DNA from: Eledone cirrhosa
Taxonomy: Eukaryota
Assembly: GCA_964016885.1 (NCBI GenBank)
Contig: OZ024743.1
Span: 157,604,001-157,668,000, forward strand
DNA length: 64,000 nt
Direction of reading: 5' to 3'
In this document: in pieces, positions 18,504 to 63,175 of the stretch
Numbering within the stretch: the stretch's first letter is position 1
How the letters are laid out: each line of letters starts with the position of its first letter
The notes under the pieces: model-generated
The model's database searches: none
The model's input: only the letters and a program-made list of their open reading frames with translations
Told to the model about the DNA's origin: nothing
Program-made: the position numbers and the translations under genes

Positions 18504-20074
18504 TATATGGAGTGTTAATAGTGTTACACGTTGCTTATGTCTGGTTGATAGTAACTCAACTAAAGTATATTGGCTGTGAAAATAATGAAAGTATTTAATA
18601 ACATTTGAGAAATGTGAAAAAAGATAAAAATAGAATCTTTTCTGGTATTTTCTTACAAATGTGGGGTTTTGTGTGTGTCTGTATGTATATGTATAGTGAG
18701 AAGCGTGTGTGGGACGAGTGGACTTGTAACTCCTGATATGGTCGTAGGAGTACGGTCGTGATATTTAATGCTTTTCGTGGGCACTTTAAATATGGCTGGG
18801 TTTAACTCCTCTCCATGTTTGATCATAGCTGATTTCTTCCGAAGAAGGAGAGAGATAGGGAGAGAGAGGAAATGAGAAAGAATTAACCCTAGTAGTGACC
18901 TGGTAATTTTTTTATAGACCTCGAAAGAAGGACAAGTAAAGATGGCTTTCGTTGGATTTGAACTCAAAGAGTACAAAGAGAAGGAACGAATATCAAAGTA
19001 TTCTAACCGACCTTCTAATAACTCTGCCAATTTGCCTAAATATATATACATATGTGTGAAAATAGTATTAGAAGATTTAAAGGTATTTAAACTATTACTA
19101 CCGGAAATAGTCTTATAACAAACGGAGGAAATTATATCAGCATGCATGGGAATCGAACCCACAGCTCTTATTGACCTAATAGGAGTGCTATAGGTGTGCC
19201 CACACGATTTTCCTCGGTTAAATTCAGAAAGAATGCGTTCATAGCAGTATATGTAAATAAGTTCGGGTTTTTTATTTTTTTTAGAATACCACCAGGATTG
19301 AAATTTGGAGATAGAAGATTTCACCGAATTCACGGAATAAAATGATCATAATGATATAGCATGGCAATTTACATATAAAGGTTAAAGGATTAAAATGAAA
19401 ATAAAAATAAAAATAAAAATAAAAATAAAACATTGGCAGTTTATGAAGATAAAGCAAGAGGAAAGTTTAGAGTAGTCAGTGTATGAAACAATCTCACGTG
19501 TAGCATGCACGCGTGTCTTATTTATACAGGATTAGAGTGCGGCAGATTGTTACTTGTAGAATCAGGCAGTTAAAGCAGGCAATCAATATTATCATGTGGG
19601 CCGTATTGTTATATCATTTTTTCGCATTCACCTGTATGATATACAATCCCGAATGTAGAGAAACACCAAAATATCAAAAATATCAAACATATCACAAAAC
19701 ATATTATAAAATAGGCAAAACAGCACCACTGTGTTCGCACACATCACCACTCACACAATCCATGAAACGCAATATATAGACTACAGGTCTATCACACAAT
19801 CCACTATGATTCAGCATTGGGTGTCTGGAGAGTCAAGCTATAAACCATATCTTGTCGTTTCATATTTTGATTAATAGATCAGGATGTTTTAGTTGTGTGA
19901 GAAGACATTGTATATTCCGGAAGTGTGTGTGTGACTAAGGGGAGTTAATGCGTAAGGGGAGTTAATGCGTAAGGGGAGGTAACTAGCTGATTTTCATAGT
20001 TAAATTTATTATCTTAAACTACATTAATGGTGTTTCAAGTGAGTCCCTATCATATGAGGTTATAACCAATTTCT

Positions 20075-21077
20075 AAATTAAGTTACTTATCTATAAACTA
20101 CAGTGTAGTCTATTAAGAAGTACTAAAGGTGTTCATATCAGGATTTTTACCTTCTATTATGGAGTGCCACACCTGAACATTCTATAAGAAGAGTCAGACC
20201 TCCAAATCAATGATCTTTGTAAGTGTATTCCACCCGCAGGACGTGGCAGGGTCTTATTACTATATATGACTCCCGGTAAGCTCTGGGTCATTGTATGCCT
20301 GAATCCTTGGCAAATTTAAATATTACCAGGGTGGTCCGGAGATCAATTCTCTCATACAAAGACCCTAATCTGGCCATCAAGCAATACATAAACTCTCAAC
20401 TCATATATAAATTAGGTTTCTTATCTATAAATTACAGTGTAGTCTACTAAGAAGTACTAAAGGTGTTCATATCAGGGTGATTACCTTCCATTATGGAGTG
20501 CCACACCTGAACAATTTATAAGAAGAGTCAGACCTCCAAATCAATGATCTTTGCAAGTGTAGTACACCCGCAGAACCTGGCAGGTTCTTATTACTATATA
20601 TGACTCCCGGTAAGCTCTGGGTCATTGTATGCCTGAATCCTTGGTAAATTTAAATATTACCAGGGTGGTCCGGAGATCAATTCTCTCATACAAAGACCCT
20701 AATCTGGCCATCAAGCAATACATAAACTCTCAACTCATATATAAATTAGGTTTCTTATCTATAAATTACAGTGTAGTCTACTAAGAAGTACTAAAGGTGT
20801 TCATATCAGGGTGATTACCTTCTATTATGGAGTGCCACACCTGAACAATTTATAAGAAGAGTCAGACCTCCAAATCAATGATCTTTGCAAGTGTAGTACA
20901 CCCGCAGAACCTGGCAGGTTCTTATTACTATATATGACTCCCGGTAAGCTTTGGGTCATTGTATGTCTGAATCCTTGGCAAATTTGAATATCACCAGGGT
21001 GGTCTGGAGACCAATTCTCTCGTAGAAAGACACTAATCTGGCCATCAAGCAATACAGAAACTCCTAACTCATATATC
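20075..21077. repeat. Tandem repeat, 3 units of 334 bp
   Basis: TTATCTATAAA.TACAGTGTAGTC recurs at 20087, 20421 and 20755; the units are highly similar. Confidence 0.92.
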
Positions 21078-21689
21078 ACCTGTACATAATTCATTGTACT
21101 CAGCATATAGAGTATATAGTCCCTTTAATAATAAATTAATTACTTAATCATATATCTATCCTATGGTGGCAGTCCATGCACAGGACTATGTTAGCACAAC
21201 CAAAACAGTGCCTACAGTTTACATTAATCATATATTTGTGCAATGTAGTCCAAGTAATTCAAGGCCAATATATCAGAAGTGGAGGTACATTGGGGTATCT
21301 CCACGGTAAAAGGTACTATAAGGGTGCCACTATTTGCGTTAGAGTGTATGAATGGGTGTGGAGATGAGGTGTAAGGTGTGCCACTGATGCTGATTGCTAG
21401 AGGTGGGTCAATATATGCACTGTGGGTCAATATATGCATATGTTTTTATATGTCTCTTGTGTTGAAAAGGAGGTCAAGTATGTTATAGATCACTAAATAG
21501 TTGCTCCGAAGAATACAAACCTCGGTTTGGAGGAAACAATTGTAAGCTAATAAATGATTTAAACTGAACTTTGATTATTGTAATCTCTCTCTATATATAT
21601 ATCAAGATGGATTCAGTTTGGAACTGGATAGACCATAACTCATCAGAGTACTCGATAGTTGGGGTAGTAGAATATGGTTATAATATAAA

Positions 21690-22310
21690 AACAAATAACG
21701 AAACGAAATTAAATTTCGTTTCGTTTGTAACTCACTTTTGTATGACTGACGCTTAAACAATTAAGTTAAAAATGTACATCCACATATGTATACTGAAATA
21801 CTAGTATGCATATGAATACACACACGTATACATATGTAGATGTACCGAGTTTTTCACTGGTCACTTTACTGTGTGTGTCCAGCTATTCTGTATGTAAACA
21901 CAGACAAACCGGTTTTTAGAGTCATACTGGTTTTTGAGGAAACACCTTTCCTCTATTCTCCAGAAAGCCAGACAAGGAATATTGAACTAGTTTCGTTGTT
22001 GTTACAACTCATCAGCAATATTTACCTATCTTCCGGCCTTTCTAGAGAATCGTAAAAGCACATATCGTTATATGCTTTTTCTATGAAAATTAGTAGTGGG
22101 CAGACTAATTTGCATAGAGCGTGAGTACGTACCGGTTCAACGGAGACGATAAAAACAAATAACGAAACGAAATTAAATTTCGTTTCGTTTGTAACTCACT
22201 TTTGTATGACTGACGCTTAAACAATTAAGTTAAAAATGTACATCCACATATGTATACTGAAATACTAGTATGCATATGAATACACACACGTATACATATG
22301 TAGATGTACC
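21690..22310 (-). mobile_element. Non-coding hammerhead-bearing element (retrozyme-like), 464-bp period, ~160-bp terminal direct repeat, 13-bp TSD
   Basis: 21685-21847 is identical to 22149-22311. GTTATAATATAAA occurs at 21677-21689 and 22311-22323. Hammerhead in the interior; no credible ORF. Confidence 0.78.
21978..22022 (-). ncRNA. Type I hammerhead ribozyme, canonical core
   Basis: Minus strand: AATATTG-CTGATGA-GTTGT(AACA)ACAAC-GAAA-CTAG-TT-CAATATT. 7-bp stem I and palindromic stem III ACTAGT. Confidence 0.88.
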
Positions 22311-23354
22311 GTTATAATATAAAGAGTCAAGAACTCGACGGCTGTGCTCTTGCCCTTTCAACAGCAAGAAACAGACCGATCGGTAAATGCATGTGCGGTT
22401 AACAGACTGTGTCATCAGGAGGTGTGGTTTATTCAAATAAGGACATACATTGTTTATCCAATTGTAAATCTCCTCACAGAAGTGTTTTATTATTGAGGAG
22501 TGGTTGTATGTGGTTGTGTGTATAGATATCTGGCTTAGTGAGTGTTTATATGTATGCGTCTATATGCGCGCCCAAGTGTATCCGTCTTCTTAGCTTGAGA
22601 TAGAATAATTACACTGAATGGGAAGGAATATATTTACAAAGAAAACATGTCAGTGTTTGTGTGTGTGTTTGTCTGCTCCTAGGCATAGTTATCATGACCC
22701 TCAGACAACAGGTCTATAGAATTGGCGTCAGTCCTCGCAGCAAATCGCTTTTATCAAGGAACAGTACAAGGTGACCGAATAGGAGATATATCTGTCAACG
22801 AAGTGACGACTAAATTCTTAGTTATCAGAATAAACGAGGAGCAGCCAGCCAATTTAACAGCTCACACATGCATTTGATGAGACAGTGATATAACGTTAAT
22901 TTAAAATGTTGATTAACTTGAGGATATTGGATACTATTTAAATAAGCTATTCCTGAACTTTCATAATACATATTTTTTAAAAAACGAAGCTTTGCACAGA
23001 TATATTTTAAAAGAAAACCTTGAAGATAACGATTGCATTGATGAAAGCAATAATAAAATACCTATAACGATATATAAATGTGTTTAGTATAATGAAAAAA
23101 ATCATGAGTATACACCTTTAGCCTACTAGCCAGTGTTTTTTAAGTAAAATCTTGTGGAACTTATTTAATACAACTACTCTAGTATTTAAACAAGTTTGAA
23201 TTACCGTTAGGAGTATAGATTTGATTTACTTAAGATATCCACGTTTCGTGGTATGACCGAGTTTCTACTAGTGATTATATTTCATATATTTATTGTGGAA
23301 TAAGTAGTATATGTAATTACTATATATTATGCAATGTAACGGCCTATGTTTTAT

Positions 23355-27703: not shown

Positions 27704-27825
27704 GGATTGAGAGGGACGAGACTGCGTGGTGACTGATAACGAATGATAGAAAGTTAAGGGAACACAAACAAGAGATAGATATCAGTTGTCTACTACAGAT
27801 CATATATATGTATGTATGTATGTAT

Positions 27826-28310
27826 GTCGCGTCACTCTTGAGTGCTACTGGTAACACGTAACCCAGTACAACCTGTCGCATGGTCGGGTCGGCGGTGACT
27901 AAACCGGCAACCCCACCAAGTTTACTTGGTAAGGAGGGTGATTTTGGACACCCTGCGGGACAAAAAGCAAAACCTGACAAAGGGCGGAAGAACTCATAAG
28001 AGTCAACAGCCATCCGGAATTGTGTAAATATGTATATACACTTGTACCACGCGGTTAAACCACTGGGAGTGAAGGACTCCTAGCCTTTGTCAGGGCATTC
28101 TACTAGGAGAATGCAACTCAGGAAACTGGGATAACTCCTGCGGCTCAGTAGTTACCGCTCAGAGAGTGGGATTGGCTCAGTGCACAGTCTTTCCTCACTT
28201 TAAAAAATATATTCACGCACAGACATTGCACGACAGAATTAATTAATAATTATTAATAATGGTATATCGTGCAATGGCCATACTCGATAACGAGGGGGCA
28301 GCCATCATGT
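27826..28310 (+). mobile_element. RTE-derived non-autonomous bipartite element (5' leader + 3' end)
   Basis: The 5' part is homologous to 46597-47000. The 3' end TGGCC.TACTCGA.AACGAG..GGCAGCCA.C followed by (ATGT)n is shared with 47175-47207. Confidence 0.65.

Positions 28311-45992: not shown

Positions 45993-45998
<6 letters not shown>
45775..45998 (+). mobile_element. SINE of a different family with a V-domain-like core
   Basis: B-box-like GGGTTCAATTC, TTGTGTTCTTGAGCAA, and GCCCTACGATGGACTGGCATCCTGTCCAGGG, which resembles the V-SINE central domain. Confidence 0.55.
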
Positions 45999-46026
<28 letters not shown>

Positions 46027-46029
<3 letters not shown>

Positions 46030-46596
46030 GGAAAGGAATGAAACGAAATTTCCTTTCTCACTCTTAGTACGTCTGATACCTAAATATAAGTATGTATACG
46101 TACATACATATATGTGTACAGACGTACAGTAGTATGTATATATATACATACATACACACATATATATATGTACGTACTAAGAGTGAGAGATGAAATTTCG
46201 TTTCATTCTTTTCCATTTATCTTTTTCGGTACGCCCGGCCGACTAACTCACTCGATATACAAATTAGGCTGCTCAGCCGTTAATATGCAGAAGGAAAGTA
46301 TATACTTTCAAACGTTCAATCATCTGACAGAAAGGTATACGATGCTGACGATAGCTAATAAGCTTGAAGCTAGTACATCTTTCCTGTGTCAGTGTTGAAC
46401 AAAAGGGTGACGGGGTGGCCTAAACACTGTACGGTGTAATTCGGGCTGTTTGTTTACAAACAAACAAACCGAGCATTATAATAAATGTTCGGTAAACCGA
46501 TACGTGCATATATATATGTGTACATGTATGTATATATATACATACTACTGTACGTCTGTATACATATATGTATGTACGTATACATATATGTATATA
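46027..46596 (+). mobile_element. Non-coding hammerhead element related to 21690-22310, with an inverted left arm
   Basis: Shared blocks AATTTCGTTTC, CGGTACG, ACTCAC..AT(A/G)CAAATTAG.CTGC.CA, the hammerhead and TGTTTACA. The left arm 46027-46172 is an inverted copy of the unit end + unit start. Confidence 0.7.
46341..46379 (+). ncRNA. Type I hammerhead ribozyme (A15.1>G variant)
   Basis: GATG-CTGACGA-TAGC(TAATAA)GCTT-GAAG-CTAG-TA-CATC. Confidence 0.8.
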
Positions 46597-47205
46597 TGTC
46601 AGGTCACCAGTTGGTGCTACTGGTAACATGTATTCCAGTACAACCTGTCCCATGGTCGGGTCGTTGGCGACTAAACTGGCAACCCCACCAAGGTTTCTTG
46701 GTGAGGAGGGTGACTTTGGACATCCTGCAGGACTAAAAACAAAACCTGTCAAAAGGCAAAGGAGCTCTTAAGAGTCAATGGCCATCCAAAATCACCGGGA
46801 GAGATGACCCCTTAGCCTTTGTCAAGGCAGAATTCTAGGAGAAGGAAAACTCTGATATAACACCTGCAACCCTGATGGTATCCAATGATGTTGACTTGTT
46901 CTTCTTTTTGGTAAATATCATCTTGGTTAAGAGAGTGGGACTGGCTTTGTGCAGTGCCTTTGCTCACTATAAAAGCTTCACGGCACAGGCATTGCTTTAT
47001 ATCTGGAGATCTCTCTGCATTTGTCGTCACATGGTACCATGGGCCCAGCACTATGTGTCAATAATTGTCACAAGTGTAGTGTTTGTACCAGAGCTTTCAA
47101 GTCGCTGGCTGGACTAAAAAGTCACACTCGTTCAGCGCATCAGTAGGGGTTCTCCTACATGGATATAAAGTAGTGGCCGTACTCGAAAACGAGTTGGCAG
47201 CCACC

Positions 47206-47260: not shown

Positions 47261-49360
<2,100 letters not shown>

Positions 49361-49399
49361 ATATATATATATATATAGTCTAAAGTGGTCTTTTTTTCC

Positions 49400-49723: not shown

Positions 49724-50281
49724 TATAGTAATTTTTGTGAGGTTTGCCGACTTATCAATAGGATACCTAATTAACAGTTTCAAAACACATCCGTAGGACG
49801 CGAGATAGAATCCCGAAAGGCGGAGGGGGAGTCAATCACGTGATATAGCGTTCAAGAAACAGAGCTAAGCCTCTTACAACCAAGAAAGAAATACCACAAA
49901 AGGCGGCGGGGGTATTTATATCAAAGCCGTAGAAGAGATGGCTAGGATGGTGAGAAGTATAAGTAATGATAGCTTTCCAGCAGTCACTACACTTTAAAGG
50001 TTACTCTACCATAGGGACGCGAGATAGAATTCCGAAAGGCGGATAGAATTCCGAACGGCTTTTCAAAATATTGTATTTTAAAGAGCACATTATTGACAGG
50101 GAGTAGCGAGAGTCTATGGCTCCGTTAATGTATCGTGATATATATATATATAGTAAGTGCATTATTGGTTGTGTAAAATGGTCCAATAACTTTATGTTAG
50201 CAATATTAAGTTCTCCACGCTTTTGTATATTTCCAATTCCATTCAAGGGAACAGCTAGATGATGTAAAACGGAGTATAAGT

Positions 50282-53200
50282 ATCAAAATGAAAATCCGAA
50301 GGCAAGGTAAAATTCCAATCATTTAATCACGACACATGTTTCAATAAGAGATAGATCGATTGTAAAGCTATGATCAATTATCACTGATCTCATCAGATGA
50401 AAATGAATTGTCTTCAAATTATTGATATGGGGGAGAAAAAATAACGATGTTCTCTCACAGAATTTATTCCCTCATATGAAGAGACACCAGTCAGAGACAC
50501 GGCGACTGCTATTAACTTCAGTTGATGTCATAAAGGTTTTCAGATTTTTATCGCTGCAAAATACACTGGACATCAATCAAAACTGTAGGGATACAATCTG
50601 TCACAGTTAATGTGAGTGGGTACACACCCATCCACACCCACATACACCGGCTCGAAGCCAAAGAAAAATATATACATATATATATACACACATCAACACA
50701 CTATTAAACCTGTAGAGTTTAATTGTGGAACCAATAAAACTACCGTTGAACGCAGTATGGAACGAGGTTCGAATAAGGAGAATAGGGACAGGTGTAGCAG
50801 ACGCATAGTGGATACAACCCCGGCTATCGAGGGTAATCCCAATGGCCGCCCTGGAGACTTGGGACGATTCAGAACACAATCGTGAAACCCCAGGACACCA
50901 TCGACCCACAGGCAATTTCCAGTTACAATAGACCAGTAACTACTAGGGAAACAGCTAATTCTAATATAGTTAGTAAGAACAAGAGGCATAGGACCAGAAA
51001 AGTCCTGTGGTATAATCCCCCTTACTCCACTGGCCTGACCACTAGTATAGCTAAGCTTTTCTTTAGGGCCTTGGACAAATGCTTCCCTAGATCGCACAGA
51101 TATTACAAAATATTCAATAGAAATACCATCAAGCTGTCCTACTCCACAACTAGTAACATAGCTCAGAATATAGCTAAGATGAATTATAGTAGACTTAGGA
51201 CAGTCCATGGGGGAATTAGGCATGGCAGGAACAATGGCGGCTCTATTGAGGAACTGACTCATACACGTGAGGCGAGTCGGGTCTCCCCAACCCCAGGTAA
51301 TTTACCCATAGAGCAGACAGGAACTGAGACCCGACCCCAAATGTACCGTGGTCCATCTGGAACTACCCAAGTCGATAGCAAAAAATATAACTGCAGAAGC
51401 ACCGCCACCTGCTCCCTGGCTGGGAAATGCCTTACCAAAAATATAGTCTACGACTGTAAGGTCTCCACTCCTGATAGAACCTTTAGGTATGTTGGGGCAA
51501 CTGCCAGGGAATTTAAGGATAGATGGTATAATCACCTCGATACCTTTAATAGATTAGATTAAAAAAATAGCACGGCACTTTCTGAATTAGTCTGGAGCTT
51601 AAACATCAGAATATAGAGCACTCCTTATCCTGGTACATAGTTTGCTCAGCCCAACCTTATAACGGCAGCACTGGCGTCTGCAATTTATGTATAGCTGAAA
51701 CTTTTAATATTATTAGAGGCGCCCCCCTATTAATTAATAGGAGAGCAGATCTTTTCAGCACCTGCCAACATAGAACCTCGGAAACCTTCCGCAGGATTTT
51801 TGGAAGGTAACCTACCACTAACTCCTCCTTCTCTGCTTTAGCCATAGAGTTATCTCAATAAACAGACAGTCACACACTCAGGTAGTTAGACGGCTAAGAT
51901 TGTTTGCGCACTTACAAAGGATACTCGGCCTGTTTCCACGGAGTTCTCACAGCTGAGAGCACTTTTTTAGAATACCTAGCTAGTAAATAGTTAGATTGAT
52001 TACACACTTAGTATACCTAGTTAGTAATTGATTGCACACGCAGACATGACCAATTACGCGCACCTACCTTTACTTTAAGATACCCTAACCATTGAGTTCT
52101 CTCAGTTGGGATATAGCTAGTCGTATAACACACTTAGTTAGGACCGATTACGCTCTCTATACATAACTCTACACACAGTACCCGTTTTCTTTAGACATGG
52201 AGCTCCCACAATTACGACCGTCACGTTCCTACCGACTGAACACTACACTATGTTTTGATCCCAGGAGGACTCACTGTTACGGATTGAACAATAATACTTA
52301 CACACCATTAATTGGCCTACACACATCCTTTGGATTTTACTATCCTGTGTTTTTTTACTTCACCTTCTATGTTGGATAACACACCTCCACCACTCAAACA
52401 ACTATCTTAAAAGCTCATTGGCCCATATGACGGGAAATCGCACAACTACGGACGCATTTACCCAATACCCAACCCTACACGGAGCCCTTTGCTGGCCTAC
52501 ATTGCGGGTGCTTGCACGCACGGATTTAGTGACCCGGATTCTCAATGGGACAGCGGTACATATTGAGTTCGATCTGAGCTGATTGCTTGCTCTTCACATG
52601 GATATGAATATACCCGGACACACCCTTTTTTGGACGATTCGGATGTGTATATACCATAACATACACTTGAAGATATGGATGTTACAATTCAATCTATACA
52701 CGTATAGCAGAACACTGAACTGAACTTACTTGCTTGTGTGTGGGGGGGGGGCGTTGGTTAGCCCAATATTTCCAATTTACATCGTCAAATTGAGATTTGA
52801 CCAATATAGCTTCTGTTGTTTTGTGAACTAACTTTCGGTGAGTGCTGTGTTGGTACATTCTTATATTTGATTCCTTATATTTTTTTTTCTCGGACATCGC
52901 TTCGGTGTGTGTGTACCCACCCACACCAACTCTACAGGTTTAATACTGTGTTGATGTGTGTATATATATATGTATATATTTTTCTTTGACCTCGATCCGG
53001 TGTATGCGGGTGTGGAATCTGTGTGTACCCACTCACATTAACTGTGACTGACTGTATCCCTACCGATTTGATTGATGTCCAGCGTCTTTTGCAGCGATAG
53101 AAATCTGAAAACTGTTATGATCTCAGCTGAAGTTAATAGCAGTCGCCGTGTCTCTGACTGGTGTCTCTTCATATGAGGGAATGAATTCTGTTAGAGAACA

Positions 53201-53363
53201 TCGTTATTTTTTTCTCCCCCATATCAAGAATTTGAAGACAATTCATTTTCACCTGATGAGATCATTGATAATCCGTCATGGCTTTAAAATCGATCTATCT
53301 CTTATTGAAACATGTGTCGTGATTAAATGATTGGAATTTTACCTTGCCTTCGAATTTTCATTT

Positions 53364-53368
<5 letters not shown>
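50282..53368 (+). mobile_element. 5'-truncated Naiad-type PLE with ~440-bp terminal inverted repeats
   Basis: 50282-50719 is the reverse complement of ~52928-53368. ORF 50882-51810 has WYNPPY, KIFNRNTIKLSYS, NCRSTATCSLAGKCL..NIVY..YVGAT..FKDRWYNH and CNLC..E. Confidence 0.88.
53249..53322 (+). ncRNA. Hammerhead motif with a long (47-nt) stem II region; inverted copy at 50327-50400
   Basis: TCAC-CTGATGA-[47 nt]-GAAA-CATGTG-TC-GTGA. Confidence 0.68.
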
Positions 53369-53391
<23 letters not shown>

Positions 53392-55687: not shown

Positions 55688-55863
55688 TACGTTATTCCGG
55701 TTGAATCGGAGGTAACCACCGTAAGTAAGGTACTCAATACATAGCAGAGTATACAAGTTTTAATATAGATGAGATTCTACAGGACTAGAACTGTTTCATT
55801 CTTTAGAAATCATCAGGATTCCTGATGATTTCTAAAGAATGAAACAGTTCTAGTCCTGTAGAA

Positions 55864-55870
<7 letters not shown>
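55688..55870. mobile_element. Palindromic PLE tail insertion whose axis lies at the hammerhead CTGATGA
   Basis: Arms 55769-55817 and 55821-55869; CTGATGA-TTTCTAAAGAAT-GAAAC-AGTTCTA-GTC on both strands. Confidence 0.82.
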
Positions 55871-55896
<26 letters not shown>

Positions 55897-55899
<3 letters not shown>

Positions 55900-56355
55900 A
55901 GGAAGTTATAGTTCACTTGAAGCATTGTGTAATGAGGTATAAACGTTTGTCTTTGTAAACCCAAAACAATGCAGGTATGGACATAGAATATAAACGCAAA
56001 TGCAAAAGACATTGTTGGCAATTAGTCTTTTACCTTAAATTTATTTGAATGTCCTTAATTTTCGAGATAGTATCTCTTCTTCGGAGGGAAATAAAGCGGT
56101 TAAACCAGTGTTCTAAATACCTAGCCAAGTCATGCAAGTTAATTAGAACACTGGTTTAACCGCTTTATTTCCCTCCGAAGAAGAGATATTATCTCGAAAA
56201 TAAAGGACATTCAAATAAATTTAAGGTAAATGACTAATTGTCAACAATATCTTTTGCATTTGCATTTATATTCTATGTCCATACCTGCATTGTTTTGGGT
56301 TTACAAAGACAAACGTTTATACCTCAATGCTTCAAGTGAACTATAACTTCCTCCA
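55897..56355. mobile_element. ~220-bp-arm palindromic PLE-type insertion between (TA)n, carrying a CCGAAGA hammerhead variant
   Basis: Arms 55897-56116 and 56143-56355. Minus strand 56053-56087 reads CCT-CCGAAGA-AGAGAT(ACT)ATCTC-GAAA-AT-TA-AGG. Confidence 0.8.
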
Positions 56356-56376
56356 TATATATATATATATATATAT

Positions 56377-56576
56377 AAAGAATTAGTATATCTGCTAACA
56401 TATATATACAGATGCATACCTATGCCAGCAAATATATAGGTTTTGTCTCAGTAACTATGTGGTTCAATACATGGGGATGCAGAACAATAATATGAGAGAC
56501 GTAAAATAAGAAAATTATAAAAATTAACTTACTTACTAAAATGTTACGTTAATTTTTATAATTTTCTTATTTTACG

Positions 56577-56585
<9 letters not shown>
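56377..56585. mobile_element. PLE tail fragment with a short inverted arm (family of 41245-41503)
   Basis: Near-identical to 41245-41410; arms 56490-56527 and 56547-56585. Confidence 0.72.
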
Positions 56586-56628
<43 letters not shown>

Positions 56629-56895
56629 CGGCGATGAATTAGTTTTGCGAGGTTTTTTATATGAAATCGTGTGTCGAAACAGATATTGTTATATTTGGGG
56701 AGGGTCATATTTGCGTAATATTGCCAGAATTAATAACAGAACACACTCACTGTTTGGTTGGTTTTCGCTTCTCGCTGTCTTTTATATATATATATCTGCG
56801 ATCTAACTTACTCGGTCCTCAATGTTGCCATTGACTGACCGGCGGTCAAAAATAATACAGATACAATATAGACAAACACATATATATATAGTTTA

Positions 56896-56950
56896 CATAA
56901 TTTACATAAATCTTTCGTTGCACATCTGCAACACCGTCAGTGGTGTTATA
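56896..56950 (-). ncRNA. Hammerhead in the inverted arm, core A9>G (CTGACGG)
   Basis: Reverse complement of 58605-58659 with one core substitution. Confidence 0.65.
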
Positions 56951-57220
56951 TTCATTGTTCCTCCTGTTGTGTTGTATGTCTACGCCATTTTTTTTTTTTG
57001 TTCAGTCTGTCTATATATTTATTTATTTATTTGCTTGTTTGTTTATCTTATTTTATTTTGTCTTCTTTGCGCATGCGTTTGCGTGTGTGTATAGTGTTAT
57101 GTGTGATGTGTGACTAGTGTGTATAGTGTTGTGTCTGCTGGGCGACCAGTGTGTGTTTATGTGCCTGTGTATGCACTCACCTATCCTATTTTATTTATTT
57201 TATTTAATTTACTCATTCAT

Positions 57221-58069
57221 TTATACTTCTCTTAGGTCAGTGTTGTTTGTTTGGGTGTTGTTGTTGTTCCACTCATTCTTTCTGTTTAGCTTTGGTCTTC
57301 TAATTTCTATTTCACTGGCCTCTCTGATTTGCCTATCTGCTGGGTCATTCCTATGTTTAGATATTATTCTAATTTCTATGTTGTCTATGTTACCGTCATG
57401 TTGTTGTCTAGCATGTTCGTATAGTACTGACCCATTTTTTCGTCCTTTTAGTTCCCCCCAGTGTTGGTCTATCCTTTCACCTATGCTACGAGCTGTCTCA
57501 CCTATGTATGTTGTTGTCGTGTTTCTGCAAGTACCCTCTGTACATCTTATGCTATAGACTACGTTTCTAGTTTTACAGTTTATCCGGGGGTTCACCTTAC
57601 ATATGATACATTTCCTATTGGTACAGTGGGTTTTCTTAAAAGGGTAGGTTTTGCTGATCAGGGATTTTATGGTGGTTCCTGGCTTTTCTACCACCTTTAT
57701 TTTTAAGTGGGTCTTTCTCAGGGCCTTTCTACACTGGTTAGCTAATTTCCCTCCAGGGGTGGCGTCCACAAACATGACACTCTGATATCTCTGGTTGTCG
57801 TACCATGATGTGGCCTTCCCTATCTTATGTCTAGCCCTATCTAAGCTATTCCATGATTTGCTCCTGTATAGTGGGCAAATTCCTTTCATGTCCAGTTCTA
57901 TGAGGGTCTTATACTTTTCCATGGCTCCTTCGTATACTCTGACTCTGTCTCTTTGGTTGTAGCCAGAGAACTGCATGCGGTTGATGAAGTGTTGGATGTG
58001 TCCTTCCATTTCTGTTGGGTCGCACATGCTGGACACATTCTTCATCACTCGTACCAAATCTGCGATCAG
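57221..58069 (-). pseudogene. Inverted duplicate of the PLE ORF C-terminus (thumb, linker, GIY-YIG)
   Basis: Translation matches the last ~278 aa of 58847-62479. Confidence 0.92.
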
Positions 58070-58604
58070 GATAGACCAACACTGGGGGGAACTAAAAGGA
58101 CGAAACTAAAAGGACGAAAAAACGGGTCAGTACTATACGAACATGCTAGACAACAACATGACGGTAACATAGACAACATAGAAATTAGAATAATATCTAA
58201 ACATAGGAATGACCCAGCAGATAGGCAAATCAGAGAGGCCAGTGAAATAGAAATTAGAAGACCAAAGCTAAACAGAAAGAATGAATGGAAGAACAACAAC
58301 ACCCAAACAAACAACACTGACCTAAGAGAAGTATAAATGAATGAGTAAATTAAATTAAATAAATAAAATAGGATAGGTCAGTGCATACACAGGCACATAA
58401 ACACACACTGGTCGCCCAGCAGACACAACACTATACACACTAGTCACACATCACACATAACACTATACACACACGCAAACGCATGCGCAAAGAAGACAAA
58501 ATAAAATAAGATAAACAAACAAGCAAATAAATAAATAAATATATAGACAGACTGAACAAAAAAAAAATGGCGTAGACATACAACACAACAGGAGGAACAA
58601 TGAA

Positions 58605-58659
58605 TATAACACCACTGACGATGTTGCAGATGTGCAACGAAAGATTTATGTAAATTATG
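58605..58659 (+). ncRNA. Hammerhead ribozyme in the upstream pLTR
   Basis: CA-CTGACGA-T-GTTGCA(GATG)TGCAAC-GAAA-GATT-TA-TG. Stem III AGAUUU is self-complementary with G-U pairs, and stem I can extend through ATAA/TTAT. Confidence 0.78.
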
Positions 58660-58846
58660 TAAACTATATATATATGTGTTTGTCTATATTGTATCTGTAT
58701 TATTTTTGACCGCCGGTCAGTCAATGGCAACATTGAGGACCGAGTAAGTTAGATCGCAGATATATATATATAAAAGACAGCGAGAAGCGAAAACCAACCA
58801 AACAGTGAGTGTGTTCTGTTATTAATTCTGGCAATATTACGCAAAT

Positions 58847-61800
58847 ATGACCCTCCCCAAATATAACAATATCTGTTTCGACACACGATTTCATATAAAA
58901 AACCTCGCAAAACTAATTCATCGCCGCTATGGCATTAGCTTGTGCCAAGCTGAAAGGTTATTGAAAGACACTGTTTTCTGTTATATAAAAACTACAATAA
59001 CAACAGAACAAATCCGCTTCTTAAAACACTGTGTTTCCTCCAAAACATACACAACAAACATATCAAAACAAGTAAATAATTTATTATTGAACAAAACACA
59101 AGCTGAACGGCTAAAACACACAATAACAGTTAATATGAAAAGAACAACATACACAAAAGTCAACGCACTCTACAGACAAAAACGCATCAACGGTAAGGAA
59201 ATCCGAAATCTCATCACAGCAAACGAGAGAGATGACTTCATGAGCGTCATCCGACGCGAAACGAAATATGCTCAAAACGAATGCTGTAGGCATTTCAAGA
59301 AGAAATTAGAATGGATGAATAAGAAAAAACTACAAGAAAGGAAAATCGAATATTCTCAAAAATACCCAGATAACATCGACAACATCCGTATGAGTGATGT
59401 AAAACTACCGGAAGAATTTACCAATGACCACACAGTAAATATCTATGGGAACACTTTAATCAGTGAACAAGAACAACAAATCCTAAAGTTACCACCAAAA
59501 TTTGCCATCTACAAAAAGATTAACCCTATGGAATGCAAAACGGAGCTGGAAAAGTGTTTCACAAAAATACGTTGGAATGCAAAGGTAAACAACAACAACA
59601 ATAATAACGGTAGTAGTAATATAAACAATAACTCTGGGTATAGAAATAACAGCCATAACCATAACAATGGCAGGAAAGTGAGAAATAGTGATAATAGTAA
59701 TAATACTAGCGATAGACAGAACAACAACAACCACAATAATAATAATAATAGAAACGTTAACCACAGACACAGCAACAGTGACCACAGTAGTAATAACTGT
59801 AACAATACGAACAACAACAACAACAATAACCGCAGTGGTAATAATGGAAATAGTACATGTAGCAACATCAACAAAAACAAGAAACATAATAATAGTAACA
59901 ACCACAATGGTAGAAATAGCAGTAACAACAACAACAATAACGGTGAAGTAAACAACAATACATCTAGCAATCATAACAATAATAATATCAATGCTAATGA
60001 TAGAAACAACAACAACCACCATGATAACAATAATAGCAACACACACAACTATGACGATAGAAATAACGACAACCCCTTAGAGAAACTATTTTTCAACCCA
60101 GCTGACAAAACATATAAGATGGGTAATATCTATCCTACGAGGTTACCCTTTAATAAAAGAGTTTGCATACCACAGCAAATAGATGACGAGACGGGGGCAC
60201 AGTTCACCATAGCTAGAAATAAGATTAGACAAGTAGTAGACAGGTACACTATGAGACAGAGCAGACCAGAGGCCCAACAACTTGGGATAAAACCTGTAGA
60301 AGGCTTGGTTAGCCTCAAGCAGCGCACAAGGGATGGTGAGGTAGTGTGTCTACCCACAGATAAGTCTGGTAGGATGTCAATAGATAGCATGCCGAACTAC
60401 ATCGAGGCAATGCAACCCCACATCACCAACACGAGCGAAGTTGCACAACTAACACACGATGGGAGAGAAAAAATCCTCAACGCTCACATGATGATGTGGA
60501 CTGACATCCTAAAGCCAAGCAGACGCACTGCCAACAACTTCCAGGCGTCTAACAATGGCATACCACCCTTGTATGGGCTCCGCAAAGACCACAAGACAGT
60601 CGACGACCCGACAACAGGACCACCAACAAGACCCGTATGCGGAGCTAATATAGCTAGCAACTACAGGATCTTCTACTTCCTCTCAATGGTTATGCGCCCC
60701 ATAATCAAGATGTCCCCAGATGTATGTGAAAGTACAGAGGACCTCCTCAGCAGAATCAGTGAGTGCAACAAAAACAGGAGCCTATCCAACTGCATAATAG
60801 GCAGCATGGATGTGGTGTCACTGTACCCATCCATTAACATTGATTTTGCTGTGAAAAGATGTGTGGAGATGATCATTGAGAGTGAGGTGGAGTTCTGCGA
60901 CGTCGACACAGACGAACTGGGCCTCCTACTTAGACTTACCTACGACACTGACTACCTAGACAGCCATGACCTTAGATGTTTCTGCCCTAGTAGACCTATA
61001 AGATGTAGACCCCCCACCATAACCTCAATGGCTAAAAAGACTCCCTTAGGAAGGTGGATTGGGTGGACCAAAGCTATACGGACCCCCCAAAACACTGATC
61101 AGGTAAGAAAAATGGTCGCACATGCAAAAGGGGCTAGTATCAAAACTACCCTAAAGGGCCACATATTTAAGTTCAATGAGAAAATCTACACCCAAAATGA
61201 GGGAGCAGCCATCGGCGTCAGCATAGCTGGTGATGTTGCCAACCTTTTCATGGTATGGTGGGAAAGGAGACTTAAAGATCTCCTTAATGAAAGCTCCATA
61301 GACCTCATCATGTACTCTCGTTATGTAGACGATATCAATATAGATATAAGAACACCCCCACTAGAGAGCACTAACAAGTTTGATTTAGAACGTAGCACGA
61401 TGGAAAGCATCCAGCAGATAGCTAATTCCATACACCAGAGTATAACTGTAACTATAGACTTCCCTTCCAAACACCCTAACAATAGACTACCTGTATTAGA
61501 CACAGAACTCTGGATTAACACTATAGACGAGAGAGCCCAAATTCTCCACTCACACTATGCTAAACCCATGGCCTCCAAATACCTGATACTCAAAAACTCA
61601 GCAATGTCCAGTAGTGCTAAGTTTAATATTCTGATCGCAGATTTGGTACGAGTGATGAAGAATGTGTCCAGCATGTGCGACCCAACAGAAATGGAAGGAC
61701 ACATCCAACACTTCATCAACCGCATGCAGTTCTCTGGCTACAACCAAAGAGACAGAGTCAGAGTATACGAAGGAGCCATGGAAAAGTATAAGACCCTCAT

Positions 61801-62479
61801 AGAACTGGACATGAAAGGAATTTGCCCACTATACAGGAGCAAATCATGGAATAGCTTAGATAGGGCTAGACATAAGATAGGGAAGGCCACATCATGGTAC
61901 GACAACCAGAGATATCAGAGTGTCATGTTTGTGGACGCCACCCCCGGAGGGAAATTAGCTAACCAGTGTAGAAAGGCCCTGAGAAAGACCCACTTAAAAA
62001 TAAAGGTGGTAGAAAAGCCAGGAACCACCATAAAATCCCTGATCAGCAAAACCTACCCTTTTAAGAAAACCCACTGTACCAATAGGAAATGTATCATATG
62101 TAAGGTGAACCCCCGGATAAACTGTAAAACTAGAAACGTAGTCTATAGCATAAGATGTACAGAGGGTACTTGCAGAAACACGACAACAACATACATAGGT
62201 GAGACAGCTCGTAGCATAGGTGAAAGGATAGACCAACACTGGGGGGAACTAAAAGGACGAAAAAACGGGTCAGTACTATACGAACATGCTAGACAACAAC
62301 ATGACGGTAACATAGACAACATAGAAATTAGAATAATATCTAAACATAGGAATGACCCAGCAGATAGGCAAATCAGAGAGGCCAGTGAAATAGAAATTAG
62401 AAGACCAAAGCTAAACAGAAAGAATGAGTGGAACAACAACAACACCCAAACAAACAACACTGACCTAAGAGAAGTATAA
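58847..62479 (+). CDS. PLE polyprotein: reverse transcriptase + Cys-rich linker + GIY-YIG endonuclease (Neptune/Nematis-like architecture), uninterrupted 1210 aa
   Basis: PTDKSGR, LYGLRKDHK..RPVC, SMDVVSLYPSI, QNEGAAIG..ANLFM, YSRYVDD, LPVLD, CxxxxCxxC..C, NVVY..C..C..YIGET.R..ER..QH, R.IREA..I, LNRKNEW. Confidence 0.95.
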   Translation: MTLPKYNNICFDTRFHIKNLAKLIHRRYGISLCQAERLLKDTVFCYIKTTITTEQIRFLKHCVSSKTYTTNISKQVNNLLLNKTQAERLKHTITVNMKRTTYTKVNALYRQKRINGKEIRNLITANERDDFMSVIRRETKYAQNECCRHFKKKLEWMNKKKLQERKIEYSQKYPDNIDNIRMSDVKLPEEFTNDHTVNIYGNTLISEQEQQILKLPPKFAIYKKINPMECKTELEKCFTKIRWNAKVNNNNNNNGSSNINNNSGYRNNSHNHNNGRKVRNSDNSNNTSDRQNNNNHNNNNNRNVNHRHSNSDHSSNNCNNTNNNNNNNRSGNNGNSTCSNINKNKKHNNSNNHNGRNSSNNNNNNGEVNNNTSSNHNNNNINANDRNNNNHHDNNNSNTHNYDDRNNDNPLEKLFFNPADKTYKMGNIYPTRLPFNKRVCIPQQIDDETGAQFTIARNKIRQVVDRYTMRQSRPEAQQLGIKPVEGLVSLKQRTRDGEVVCLPTDKSGRMSIDSMPNYIEAMQPHITNTSEVAQLTHDGREKILNAHMMMWTDILKPSRRTANNFQASNNGIPPLYGLRKDHKTVDDPTTGPPTRPVCGANIASNYRIFYFLSMVMRPIIKMSPDVCESTEDLLSRISECNKNRSLSNCIIGSMDVVSLYPSINIDFAVKRCVEMIIESEVEFCDVDTDELGLLLRLTYDTDYLDSHDLRCFCPSRPIRCRPPTITSMAKKTPLGRWIGWTKAIRTPQNTDQVRKMVAHAKGASIKTTLKGHIFKFNEKIYTQNEGAAIGVSIAGDVANLFMVWWERRLKDLLNESSIDLIMYSRYVDDINIDIRTPPLESTNKFDLERSTMESIQQIANSIHQSITVTIDFPSKHPNNRLPVLDTELWINTIDERAQILHSHYAKPMASKYLILKNSAMSSSAKFNILIADLVRVMKNVSSMCDPTEMEGHIQHFINRMQFSGYNQRDRVRVYEGAMEKYKTLIELDMKGICPLYRSKSWNSLDRARHKIGKATSWYDNQRYQSVMFVDATPGGKLANQCRKALRKTHLKIKVVEKPGTTIKSLISKTYPFKKTHCTNRKCIICKVNPRINCKTRNVVYSIRCTEGTCRNTTTTYIGETARSIGERIDQHWGELKGRKNGSVLYEHARQQHDGNIDNIEIRIISKHRNDPADRQIREASEIEIRRPKLNRKNEWNNNNTQTNNTDLREV

Positions 62480-62747
62480 ATGAATGAGTAAATTAAATTA
62501 AATAAATAAAATAGGATAGGTGAGTGCATACACAGGCACATAAACACACACTGGTCGCCCAGCAGACACAACACTATACACACAAGTCACACATCACACA
62601 TAACACTATACACACACGCAAACGCATGCGCAAAGAAGACAAAATAAAATAAGATAAACAAACAAGCAAATAAATAAATAAATATATAGACAGACTGAAC
62701 AAAAAAAAAATGGCGTAGACATACAACACAACAGGAGGAACAATGAA

Positions 62748-62802
62748 TATAACACCACTGACGATGTTGCAGATGTGCAACGAAAGATTTATGTAAATTA
62801 TG
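62748..62802 (+). ncRNA. Hammerhead ribozyme in the 3' pLTR
   Basis: Identical to 58605-58659. Confidence 0.78.
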
Positions 62803-62996
62803 TAAACTATATATATATGTGTTTGTCTATATTGTATCTGTATTATTTTTGACCGCCGGTCAGTCAATGGCAACATTGAGGACCGAGTAAGTTAGATCGC
62901 AGATATATATATATAAAAGACAGCGAGAAGCGAAAACCAACCAGTGAGTGTGTTCTGTTGTTAATTCTGGCAATATTACGCAAATATGACCCTCCC

Positions 62997-63000
<4 letters not shown>

Positions 63001-63050
<50 letters not shown>

Positions 63051-63175
63051 CACACACTTATATACATACATATACACATACACATACATATATATATATA
63101 TATACATACATATACATATATATACATATATATATATAGTTATATATACATATATATATACACATATATACACAT

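What the first reader, a model, noticed from the sequence alone, without database searches (positions are those of the whole stretch)
46027..46596. A diverged relative of the 464-nt element shows an end-to-start junction in its inverted arm
Seen: 46170-46596 shares ordered blocks with the minus strand of 21690-22310 and has its own hammerhead. The stem I and II sequences differ but pairing is kept, with the same CTAG palindrome. Read on minus, the left arm (46172 to 46027) runs from the AT-rich unit end directly into the unit start (GTACTAAGAGTGAGA...). Inference: the template was tandem or circular, the ribozyme fold is under selection (natural covariation between two subfamilies), and PLE machinery inserted it because it shows the same (TA)n target and inverted-arm signature.
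Basis: partly seen in the sequence, partly recalled or inferred. Interest (0 to 1): 0.72.

Follow-up and report, generated by a model that had tools for sequence, protein, structure and literature searches.

The report
Two-armed hammerhead retrozyme with Penelope footprint
This is one decayed copy of a roughly 440-base non-coding repeat, present in tens of thousands of units in this animal genome, that carries a predicted self-cutting RNA; its back-to-back arms with one long and one short end suggest that a Penelope-type retrotransposon enzyme likely copied a small RNA circle from both ends of cut TA-repeat DNA.

Summary
Real, and a known kind: a non-LTR retrozyme. The element (family A, unit 430-484 nt, at least 29,011 units) is homologous and collinear with the 464-nt family B (61% over 416 columns, E 2e-24); 7 of 15 hammerhead pairs change on both sides. 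Corrections: this copy's hammerhead is mutated (core A15.1 to G, one helix I pair broken), and the 'unit start' is not a terminus but this copy's 5' truncation point. True 3' ends lie at two fixed sites, long (L; the arm's outer end) and short (S), at homologous columns in A and B. Two-armed insertions pair L with S in 18 of 18 classifiable A, 14 of 14 B and 7 of 7 Hydra-like PLE cases. One B insertion has 18 identical units across both arms, which favours rolling reverse transcription of an RNA circle from both target strands. No PLE sharing the tail was found; one possible chimera points weakly to a Hydra-like family. No RNA data. The scan has reported the same two-armed pattern for other retrozyme families in this genome.

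The parts
45997..46026 (.). (TA)15 run, left target
   Evidence: TRF
46027..46174 (-). Inverted arm, about 147 nt, 5'-truncated; its outer end at about 46027 is the family's long (L) 3' end
   Evidence: L end in 40 of 93 sampled 3' ends
46170..46177 (.). Head-to-head joint of the two arms: 8-nt palindrome with a 2-nt overlap at 46173-46174 (inferred microhomology join of two cDNA ends)
   Evidence: sequence; overlaps of 0-5 nt in 14 of 28 sampled joints
46173..46586 (+). Main arm, about 0.95 unit of family A, 5'-truncated, ending in the short (S) end cluster a few bases before the first S site
   Evidence: 92-94% identity to the top genome copies; end classes
46187..46204 (+). Hairpin just upstream of the L site (L site read through at about 46219); B has a homologous hairpin
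   Evidence: circular folds; alignment
46333..46385 (+). Type I hammerhead: core from 46345, predicted cut between 46375 and 46376, palindromic loop III; private changes at 46369 (A15.1 to G) and 46380 (helix I pair broken)
46505..46582 (+). Long TA-rich hairpin of the unit, also present in B
46587..46600 (.). TA-rich right flank, start of an unrelated repeat (83% to window 27812-28015)
21686..22311 (-). Relative, family B: single-armed insertion of 1.35 units of 464 nt, L end at about 21686, intact hammerhead at 21962-22033, 13-nt direct repeats at 21677-21689 and 22311-22323

Best explanation
This is a decayed, two-armed insertion of an abundant non-coding hammerhead repeat (a non-LTR retrozyme) that was likely made by a Penelope-like element's enzyme copying one small, probably circular, RNA from both ends of cut TA-repeat DNA. 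Shown: high copy number, tandem arrays, hammerhead fold with covariation, two fixed 3' ends next to TA runs, scattered 5' ends, L+S pairing, near-identical units within an insertion. Inferred steps: (1) tandem arrays are transcribed and cut by double hammerheads, because helix III is one pair plus a palindrome; (2) monomers are ligated into circles in which the lone hammerhead would be quiet; (3) a PLE RT-endonuclease, probably a dimer, cuts both strands in AT-rich DNA and starts at two sites 57-74 nt apart, one per strand; (4) both cDNAs roll round the circle, stop at random and join head to head by microhomology. Here the left strand started at L and made about 147 nt; the right started at S and made about 414 nt.
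For: Copy number: 29,011 exact matches to an A anchor, 6,174 to a B anchor, 39,136 to the shared hammerhead pattern, reversed controls 0. 3' ends: 79 of 93 A and 41 of 43 B ends fall at L or S, at homologous columns. L+S pairing: 18 of 26 independent two-armed A insertions, with none L+L or S+S and 8 having an interrupted arm (p 4e-6 on 18); 14 of 16 B; 7 of 7 Hydra-like PLE loci with both arms visible. Arms of one insertion differ at 0.74 family-variable sites per 100 nt against 6.0 for random copies (comparisons not independent). 18 of 18 units are identical over both arms of one B insertion, which differs by 3-16 nt from six other arrays. No pile-up of 5' ends at the cut site: 2 of 96 within -3..+5; 43 of 96 segments exceed one unit. 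Four natural units fold as circles at z -5.7 to -11.4 with the same order of hairpins. Literature: PMC7229834 (circles, PLE candidate), PMC8557442 (inverted copy, one-sided tail, TA targets), PMC11167929 (two internal RT starts, both strands extended, predicted dimer), PMC4209133 (dimeric hammerheads).
Against: No cleavage, circle or expression is shown. No PLE with a shared tail or pLTR was found, unlike Xenopus retrozymes, which resemble pLTRs. In the similarity-picked set of 30 loci, about 9 two-armed copies are L+S but L015 looks S+S, L018 L+L and L023 is an unclear composite (read by eye). Identical units could come from assembly polishing or later homogenisation; a 30-unit array shows irregular shared variants, i.e. 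local duplication. PMC11167929 found uncleaved RNA to be the main PLE substrate in vitro, which fits a linear tandem template too. This copy's arms differ at 6 of about 106 compared sites, 3 of them family-variable. 3' breakpoints at the cut site are not enriched (36 against 35 at a control anchor).
Confidence: 0.7

Rival explanations
1. Same retrozyme and PLE machinery, but the template is a linear, uncleaved multi-unit transcript of a homogeneous array; the two strands prime on different units of it.
For: Uncleaved RNA was the main substrate for the anole PLE in vitro (PMC11167929). Long arrays exist. Two arrays show a two-unit period (L337, L338). It also explains lengths above one unit and no pile-up at the cut site.
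Against: It needs a transcript of 12 or more identical units with every hammerhead uncut although neighbours allow the dimer fold. Older arrays are heterogeneous (23 differences between two units in L243), yet young insertions have identical units. A dimeric circle explains the two-unit period as well.
Confidence: 0.2
2. The inverted arm comes from fold-back of one cDNA or from DNA-level repair or recombination in AT-rich palindromes, not from priming on both strands.
For: Several joints are palindromic with overlaps of 16-51 nt, and both arms sometimes stop at the same unit position.
Against: Fold-back needs one arm contained in the other; here the arms overlap only in part, and each ends at its own fixed site. 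It does not predict strict L+S pairing.
Confidence: 0.06
3. A LINE (RTE, CR1 or similar) or a DNA-based satellite mechanism spreads the repeat; the hammerhead is a passenger.
For: LINE fragments are abundant in the window. No PLE sequence homology was found. One copy has a 9-nt target duplication at a non-TA site.
Against: There is no poly(A) or simple-repeat tail encoded at one fixed end. Two internal 3' ends with L+S pairing match the Hydra-like PLE of this genome. DNA-based spreading does not give fixed 3' and random 5' ends.
Confidence: 0.04

Closest known systems
Metazoan non-LTR retrozymes (Cervera and de la Pena 2020, PMC7229834; parts 2-4 of 6 read)
   Same: Non-coding tandem unit with a canonical type I hammerhead, low GC, highly paired fold, no LTR. 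One-pair helix III with a palindromic tetraloop as in axolotl HHR_Amex1; U.U at the base of helix II as in HHR_Amex2.
   Different: Unit 430-484 nt, a little above the 170-400 nt they report. Mostly dispersed 0.5-2-unit copies. Two-armed inserts with fixed L and S ends are not described in the parts read. Circles were shown there and are untested here.
Retrozymes as non-autonomous PLE derivatives (Li, Clavereau, Pollet, bioRxiv 10.64898/2026.07.22.740005; parts 1-3 of 5 read)
   Same: Monomers, dimers and multimers of a hammerhead unit, co-occurring with PLEs.
   Different: Their link is co-occurrence and pLTR homology in vertebrates. Here no pLTR homology was found; the link is the insertion footprint.
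EN+ Penelope-like elements, Hydra clade (Craig et al. 2021, PMC8557442; passages and the Hydra section read)
   Same: 5' truncation, partial tandems, inverted 5'-truncated copy, tail often at one end only, (TA)n targets.
   Different: No ORF; tail 57-74 nt against 30-40 nt. The Hydra-like family examined here shows no canonical hammerhead core and shares no tail sequence.
Anole Poseidon PLE in vitro (Frangieh et al. 2024, PMC11167929; parts 1-2 of 4 read)
   Same: Two internal RT start sites that bound the tail; AT-rich cleavage; both strands extended; predicted dimer.
   Different: They saw no start-site difference between strands and used linear RNA. The genome record here shows the two sites used one per end.

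Membership tests
non-LTR retrozyme | Type I hammerhead in each unit | tested here: met
   Core and helices in family copies, 91.7% of cells paired; this copy is mutated; Rfam HH9 matches fall below the gathering score
non-LTR retrozyme | Tandem copies with two or more complete hammerheads | tested here: met
   A arrays up to 7.4 units, B up to 30; not at this locus
non-LTR retrozyme | Non-coding, a few hundred nt, GC below 50%, no LTR | tested here: met
   No stop-free frame of 120 aa here; units 430-484 nt; PBS and PPT not searched
non-LTR retrozyme | Highly self-paired circular fold | tested here: met
   61-69% paired, z -5.7 to -11.4 against 25 dinucleotide shuffles
non-LTR retrozyme | Expressed as linear and circular RNA; self-cleaves | not testable with these tools
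   No RNA holder listed; no bench assay
PLE-mobilised element | Fixed 3' ends with optional tail, random 5' truncation | tested here: met
   79 of 93 A and 41 of 43 B 3' ends at L or S; 5' ends scattered
PLE-mobilised element | Inverted 5'-truncated copy and partial tandems | tested here: met
   26 independent two-armed A insertions in 54 loci
PLE-mobilised element | (TA)n target bias | tested here: met
   69 of 79 L or S ends followed by TA-rich sequence; right flank of this copy only TA-rich
PLE-mobilised element | Sequence shared with an autonomous PLE pLTR or tail | tested here: inconclusive
   None in four families seen; the genome's PLE families were not surveyed
autonomous PLE | RT plus GIY-YIG ORF | tested here: not met
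   No ORF in the unit; no PLE ORF contiguous upstream in fetched A or B loci

The most novel reading that the evidence does not exclude
These repeats are a fossil record of a PLE dimer performing twin-primed rolling-circle reverse transcription on one ribozyme-made circular RNA, with each subunit fixed to one of two start sites. The client is a HHR-bearing circle recognised by structure, not by sequence shared with its Hydra-type host. That would explain in one step the PLE inverted copy, the one-sided tail and retrozyme tandems.
Probability: 0.5. Interest if true: 0.72.

Novelty: new member of a known kind. Interest (0 to 1): 0.5.

Why it matters
How animal retrozymes move, and why PLE insertions carry an inverted copy and a one-sided tail, are open questions in the papers read. 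Two families 61% identical that keep the same two start sites and the same strict L+S rule, plus insertions with many identical units on both arms, give a small defined RNA substrate and sharp predictions for an in vitro PLE assay. The locus itself is an ordinary, probably dead copy among tens of thousands.

Tried and rejected
(1) 'Unit start' as a terminus: rejected. (2) 3' breakpoints at the hammerhead cut as a sign of cleavage in vivo: 36 matches against 35 at a control anchor, many being small indels; not supported. (3) 5' ends piling up at the cut site, suggested by the top-30 set: absent in the position-ordered sample. (4) L237 as a retrozyme-PLE chimera: rejected; it is an insertion into a PLE with a 9-nt target duplication. 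(5) Partner search: the Hydra-like family at window 47400-49360, a second Hydra-like family, and the window's two other PLEs share no tail with A or B; 30 of 71 variant-hammerhead loci had no PLE ORF within 1.5 kb. (6) Rfam at gathering threshold: nothing in the window; miRNA-family matches are TA-hairpin artefacts. (7) Pfam: no family for four PLE proteins. (8) No RNA holder listed; the joint was not checked against independent reads. (9) Unconstrained folding of hammerhead dimers was uninformative. (10) Scan look-up by sequence returned nothing.

Full report
Observation. The element at 46173-46586 (+) aligns over 416 columns at 61% with the minus strand of the 464-nt element at 21686-22311 (E 2e-24). 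Outside the ribozyme, the 5' part is significant alone (score 69, best of 1000 shuffles 44); the 3' non-TA part is not (77 of 1000). An inverted arm at 46027-46174 reads from the AT-rich part into GTACTAAGAG and ends in a (TA)15 run. The arms meet at an 8-nt palindrome with a 2-nt overlap.

Family. The window lies in a 3.0-Gb animal genome; that it is a cephalopod is my guess from recalled repeats and was not tested. The core has 2,938 first-look candidates, the best at 92-94% identity. Exact anchors give 29,011 units for family A and 6,174 for B; a shared hammerhead pattern gives 39,136; reversed controls give 0. A units are 430-484 nt in several subfamilies. B forms arrays above 20 kb. Four natural units fold as circles at z -5.7 to -11.4, with the same order of hairpins in A and B.

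Ribozyme. The motif is a canonical type I hammerhead: a 7+3 pair helix I with a 2-nt bulge, a 4-pair helix II with a hexaloop, and helix III reduced to A-U around CUAG. On 16 hand-picked variants (15 seen in two or more fetched loci, plus this copy), 91.7% of cells pair and 7 of 15 pairs change on both sides. The covariation score is 0.435, against 0.173 shuffled and at most 0.122 with slid partners; the count of changed pairs alone is not beyond the shuffles (113 of 500). Most changes are the single A-B split; a few arise within a family. Most A variants have U.U at the base of helix II, as axolotl HHR_Amex2 does (PMC7229834). Such short palindromic helices III work as dimers and are thought to stay quiet in monomer circles (PMC4209133, passages). 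The window's copy has A15.1 changed to G (1 of 247 A-type motifs fetched, with repeats) and a broken helix I pair. Rfam misses it but finds a sister copy (E 0.017) and B (E 7.7e-8), both under the gathering score. That A15.1 is invariant is established knowledge; loss of activity is inferred.

Termini. I took the first 100 anchor matches on contig 1 (54 loci, 96 segments at 79% identity or more; 7 weaker or duplicate rows dropped; a few local duplicates remain). Of 93 3' ends, 40 lie at a long site L and 39 at a short cluster S, 57-67 nt upstream; 69 of these 79 run into TA-rich sequence. In B, 41 of 43 ends lie at the homologous sites. So the 'end-to-start junction' is the S-to-L interval, the PLE tail (PMC8557442, PMC11167929), and the arm's outer end is the real terminus.

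One long, one short. Of 26 independent two-armed A insertions, 18 pair L with S, none pair like with like, and 8 have an interrupted arm (p 4e-6). In B, picked for having opposite-strand hammerheads, it is 14 of 16, with 2 interrupted. An abundant Hydra-like PLE (713-aa frames, 71,287 first-look candidates that include other families; Hydra motifs as in PMC8557442, no tree built) shows L+S in 7 of 7 loci where both arms were visible among 30. Against: in the 30 similarity-picked loci two copies look like-with-like and one is unclear. The window's copy is L plus a slightly short S.

Template. Arms of one insertion are far closer than random copies: 0.74 against 6.0 family-variable differences per 100 nt (105 and 350 comparisons, not independent, TA-rich misalignments included). 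Among 13 long insertions, one B insertion has 18 of 18 identical units, 6 on one arm and 12 on the other, and differs by 3-16 nt from six other B arrays. Two arrays alternate with a two-unit period, one sharing an allele with its opposite arm. A 30-unit array has irregular shared variants, and an old A pair differs at 23 sites. With 43 of 96 segments longer than one unit and no stop at the cut site, the template is a circle or an uncut tandem. Identical units on both arms favour a monomer circle, sometimes a dimer. Polishing or homogenisation cannot be excluded. In this copy the arms differ at 6 of about 106 sites, about what its 6-8% distance from relatives allows.

Partner. No PLE tail or pLTR similarity was found in the four families seen. 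One insertion, duplicated locally (L106, L168), joins family A just before the cut site to the middle of the Hydra-like ORF without a TA spacer, with an L end from A and an S end from the PLE. It may be a template switch or a later deletion. Breakpoints at that site are not enriched (36 against 35). A second candidate proved to be a plain insertion with a 9-nt target duplication.

Mechanism. Shown: copy number, arrays, fold, fixed ends, pairing rule, unit identity. Inferred: dimeric cleavage of array transcripts, ligation to circles (shown for coral, mussel and axolotl in PMC7229834), cutting of both strands by a PLE protein, priming at L on one strand and S on the other, rolling synthesis and a microhomology join.

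Known and new. It is a non-LTR retrozyme by every feature I could test; PLE mobilisation was already proposed (PMC7229834; bioRxiv 10.64898/2026.07.22.740005). The inverted copy and one-sided tail are described for PLEs (PMC8557442). Six searches listed no paper on these families or on strict L+S pairing in retrozymes; supplements of the five papers, Dfam and Repbase were not seen and may list them. What I saw: PMC7229834 parts 2-4 of 6; the preprint parts 1-3 of 5; PMC8557442 passages and one section; PMC11167929 parts 1-2 of 4; PMC4209133 passages; other papers as listings only. Notes of this scan report the same two-armed pattern for other retrozyme families in this genome; they are not independent support, and they prompted the unit-identity test.

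Verdict. Observation largely real, two details wrong; new member of a known kind; a dead copy of a family with a clear mechanistic footprint. Interest 0.5.

Noticed in passing
window 47408-49370 (-): Two-armed, 5'-truncated copy of a very abundant Hydra-like PLE (713-aa frames elsewhere). No canonical hammerhead core recurred in 30 loci, although PMC8557442 calls hammerheads universal in that clade; its 3' UTR has two 139-nt repeats (47569-47824) with no Rfam match, possibly another structured RNA.
   Followed up: partly
L106 / L168 (G000:C3:90138316-90141957 and C3:89684755-89687782): Family A joined without a TA spacer to the middle of the Hydra-like PLE ORF, 5 nt before the hammerhead cut site; one event duplicated; possible RT template switch.
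   Followed up: partly
G000:C1:30831400-30841000 (L332, L333): Two-armed family B insertion with 18 identical 468-nt units; best locus for testing rolling-circle copying and possibly very young.
   Followed up: partly
L337 and L338: Arrays with an alternating two-unit pattern of variants, as expected from a dimeric circle or a two-unit duplication.
   Followed up: partly
window 58826-62479 (+): 1217-aa frame with RT-like and GIY-YIG-like parts (Neptune-like by recalled motifs; no Pfam match), inside nested inverted duplications 56583-63103; hammerhead-like cores at 58615 and 62758.
   Followed up: no
window 50275-53374: Another Hydra-like PLE fragment with 447-bp inverted terminal copies (92%).
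   Followed up: no
window 55763-56377: Nested inverted repeats with a minimal hammerhead-like core at 55822 and its mirror at 55816.
   Followed up: no
L237:4788-5661: Single-armed two-unit family A insertion into a Hydra-like PLE at a non-TA site, with a 9-nt target duplication.
   Followed up: yes
L131-L155: About a dozen low-copy hammerhead-like motifs with the same CUAG loop but unrelated flanks; no PLE ORF within 1.5 kb.
   Followed up: partly
window 20074-21076: 334-bp unit in three tandem copies, 95% matches.
   Followed up: no
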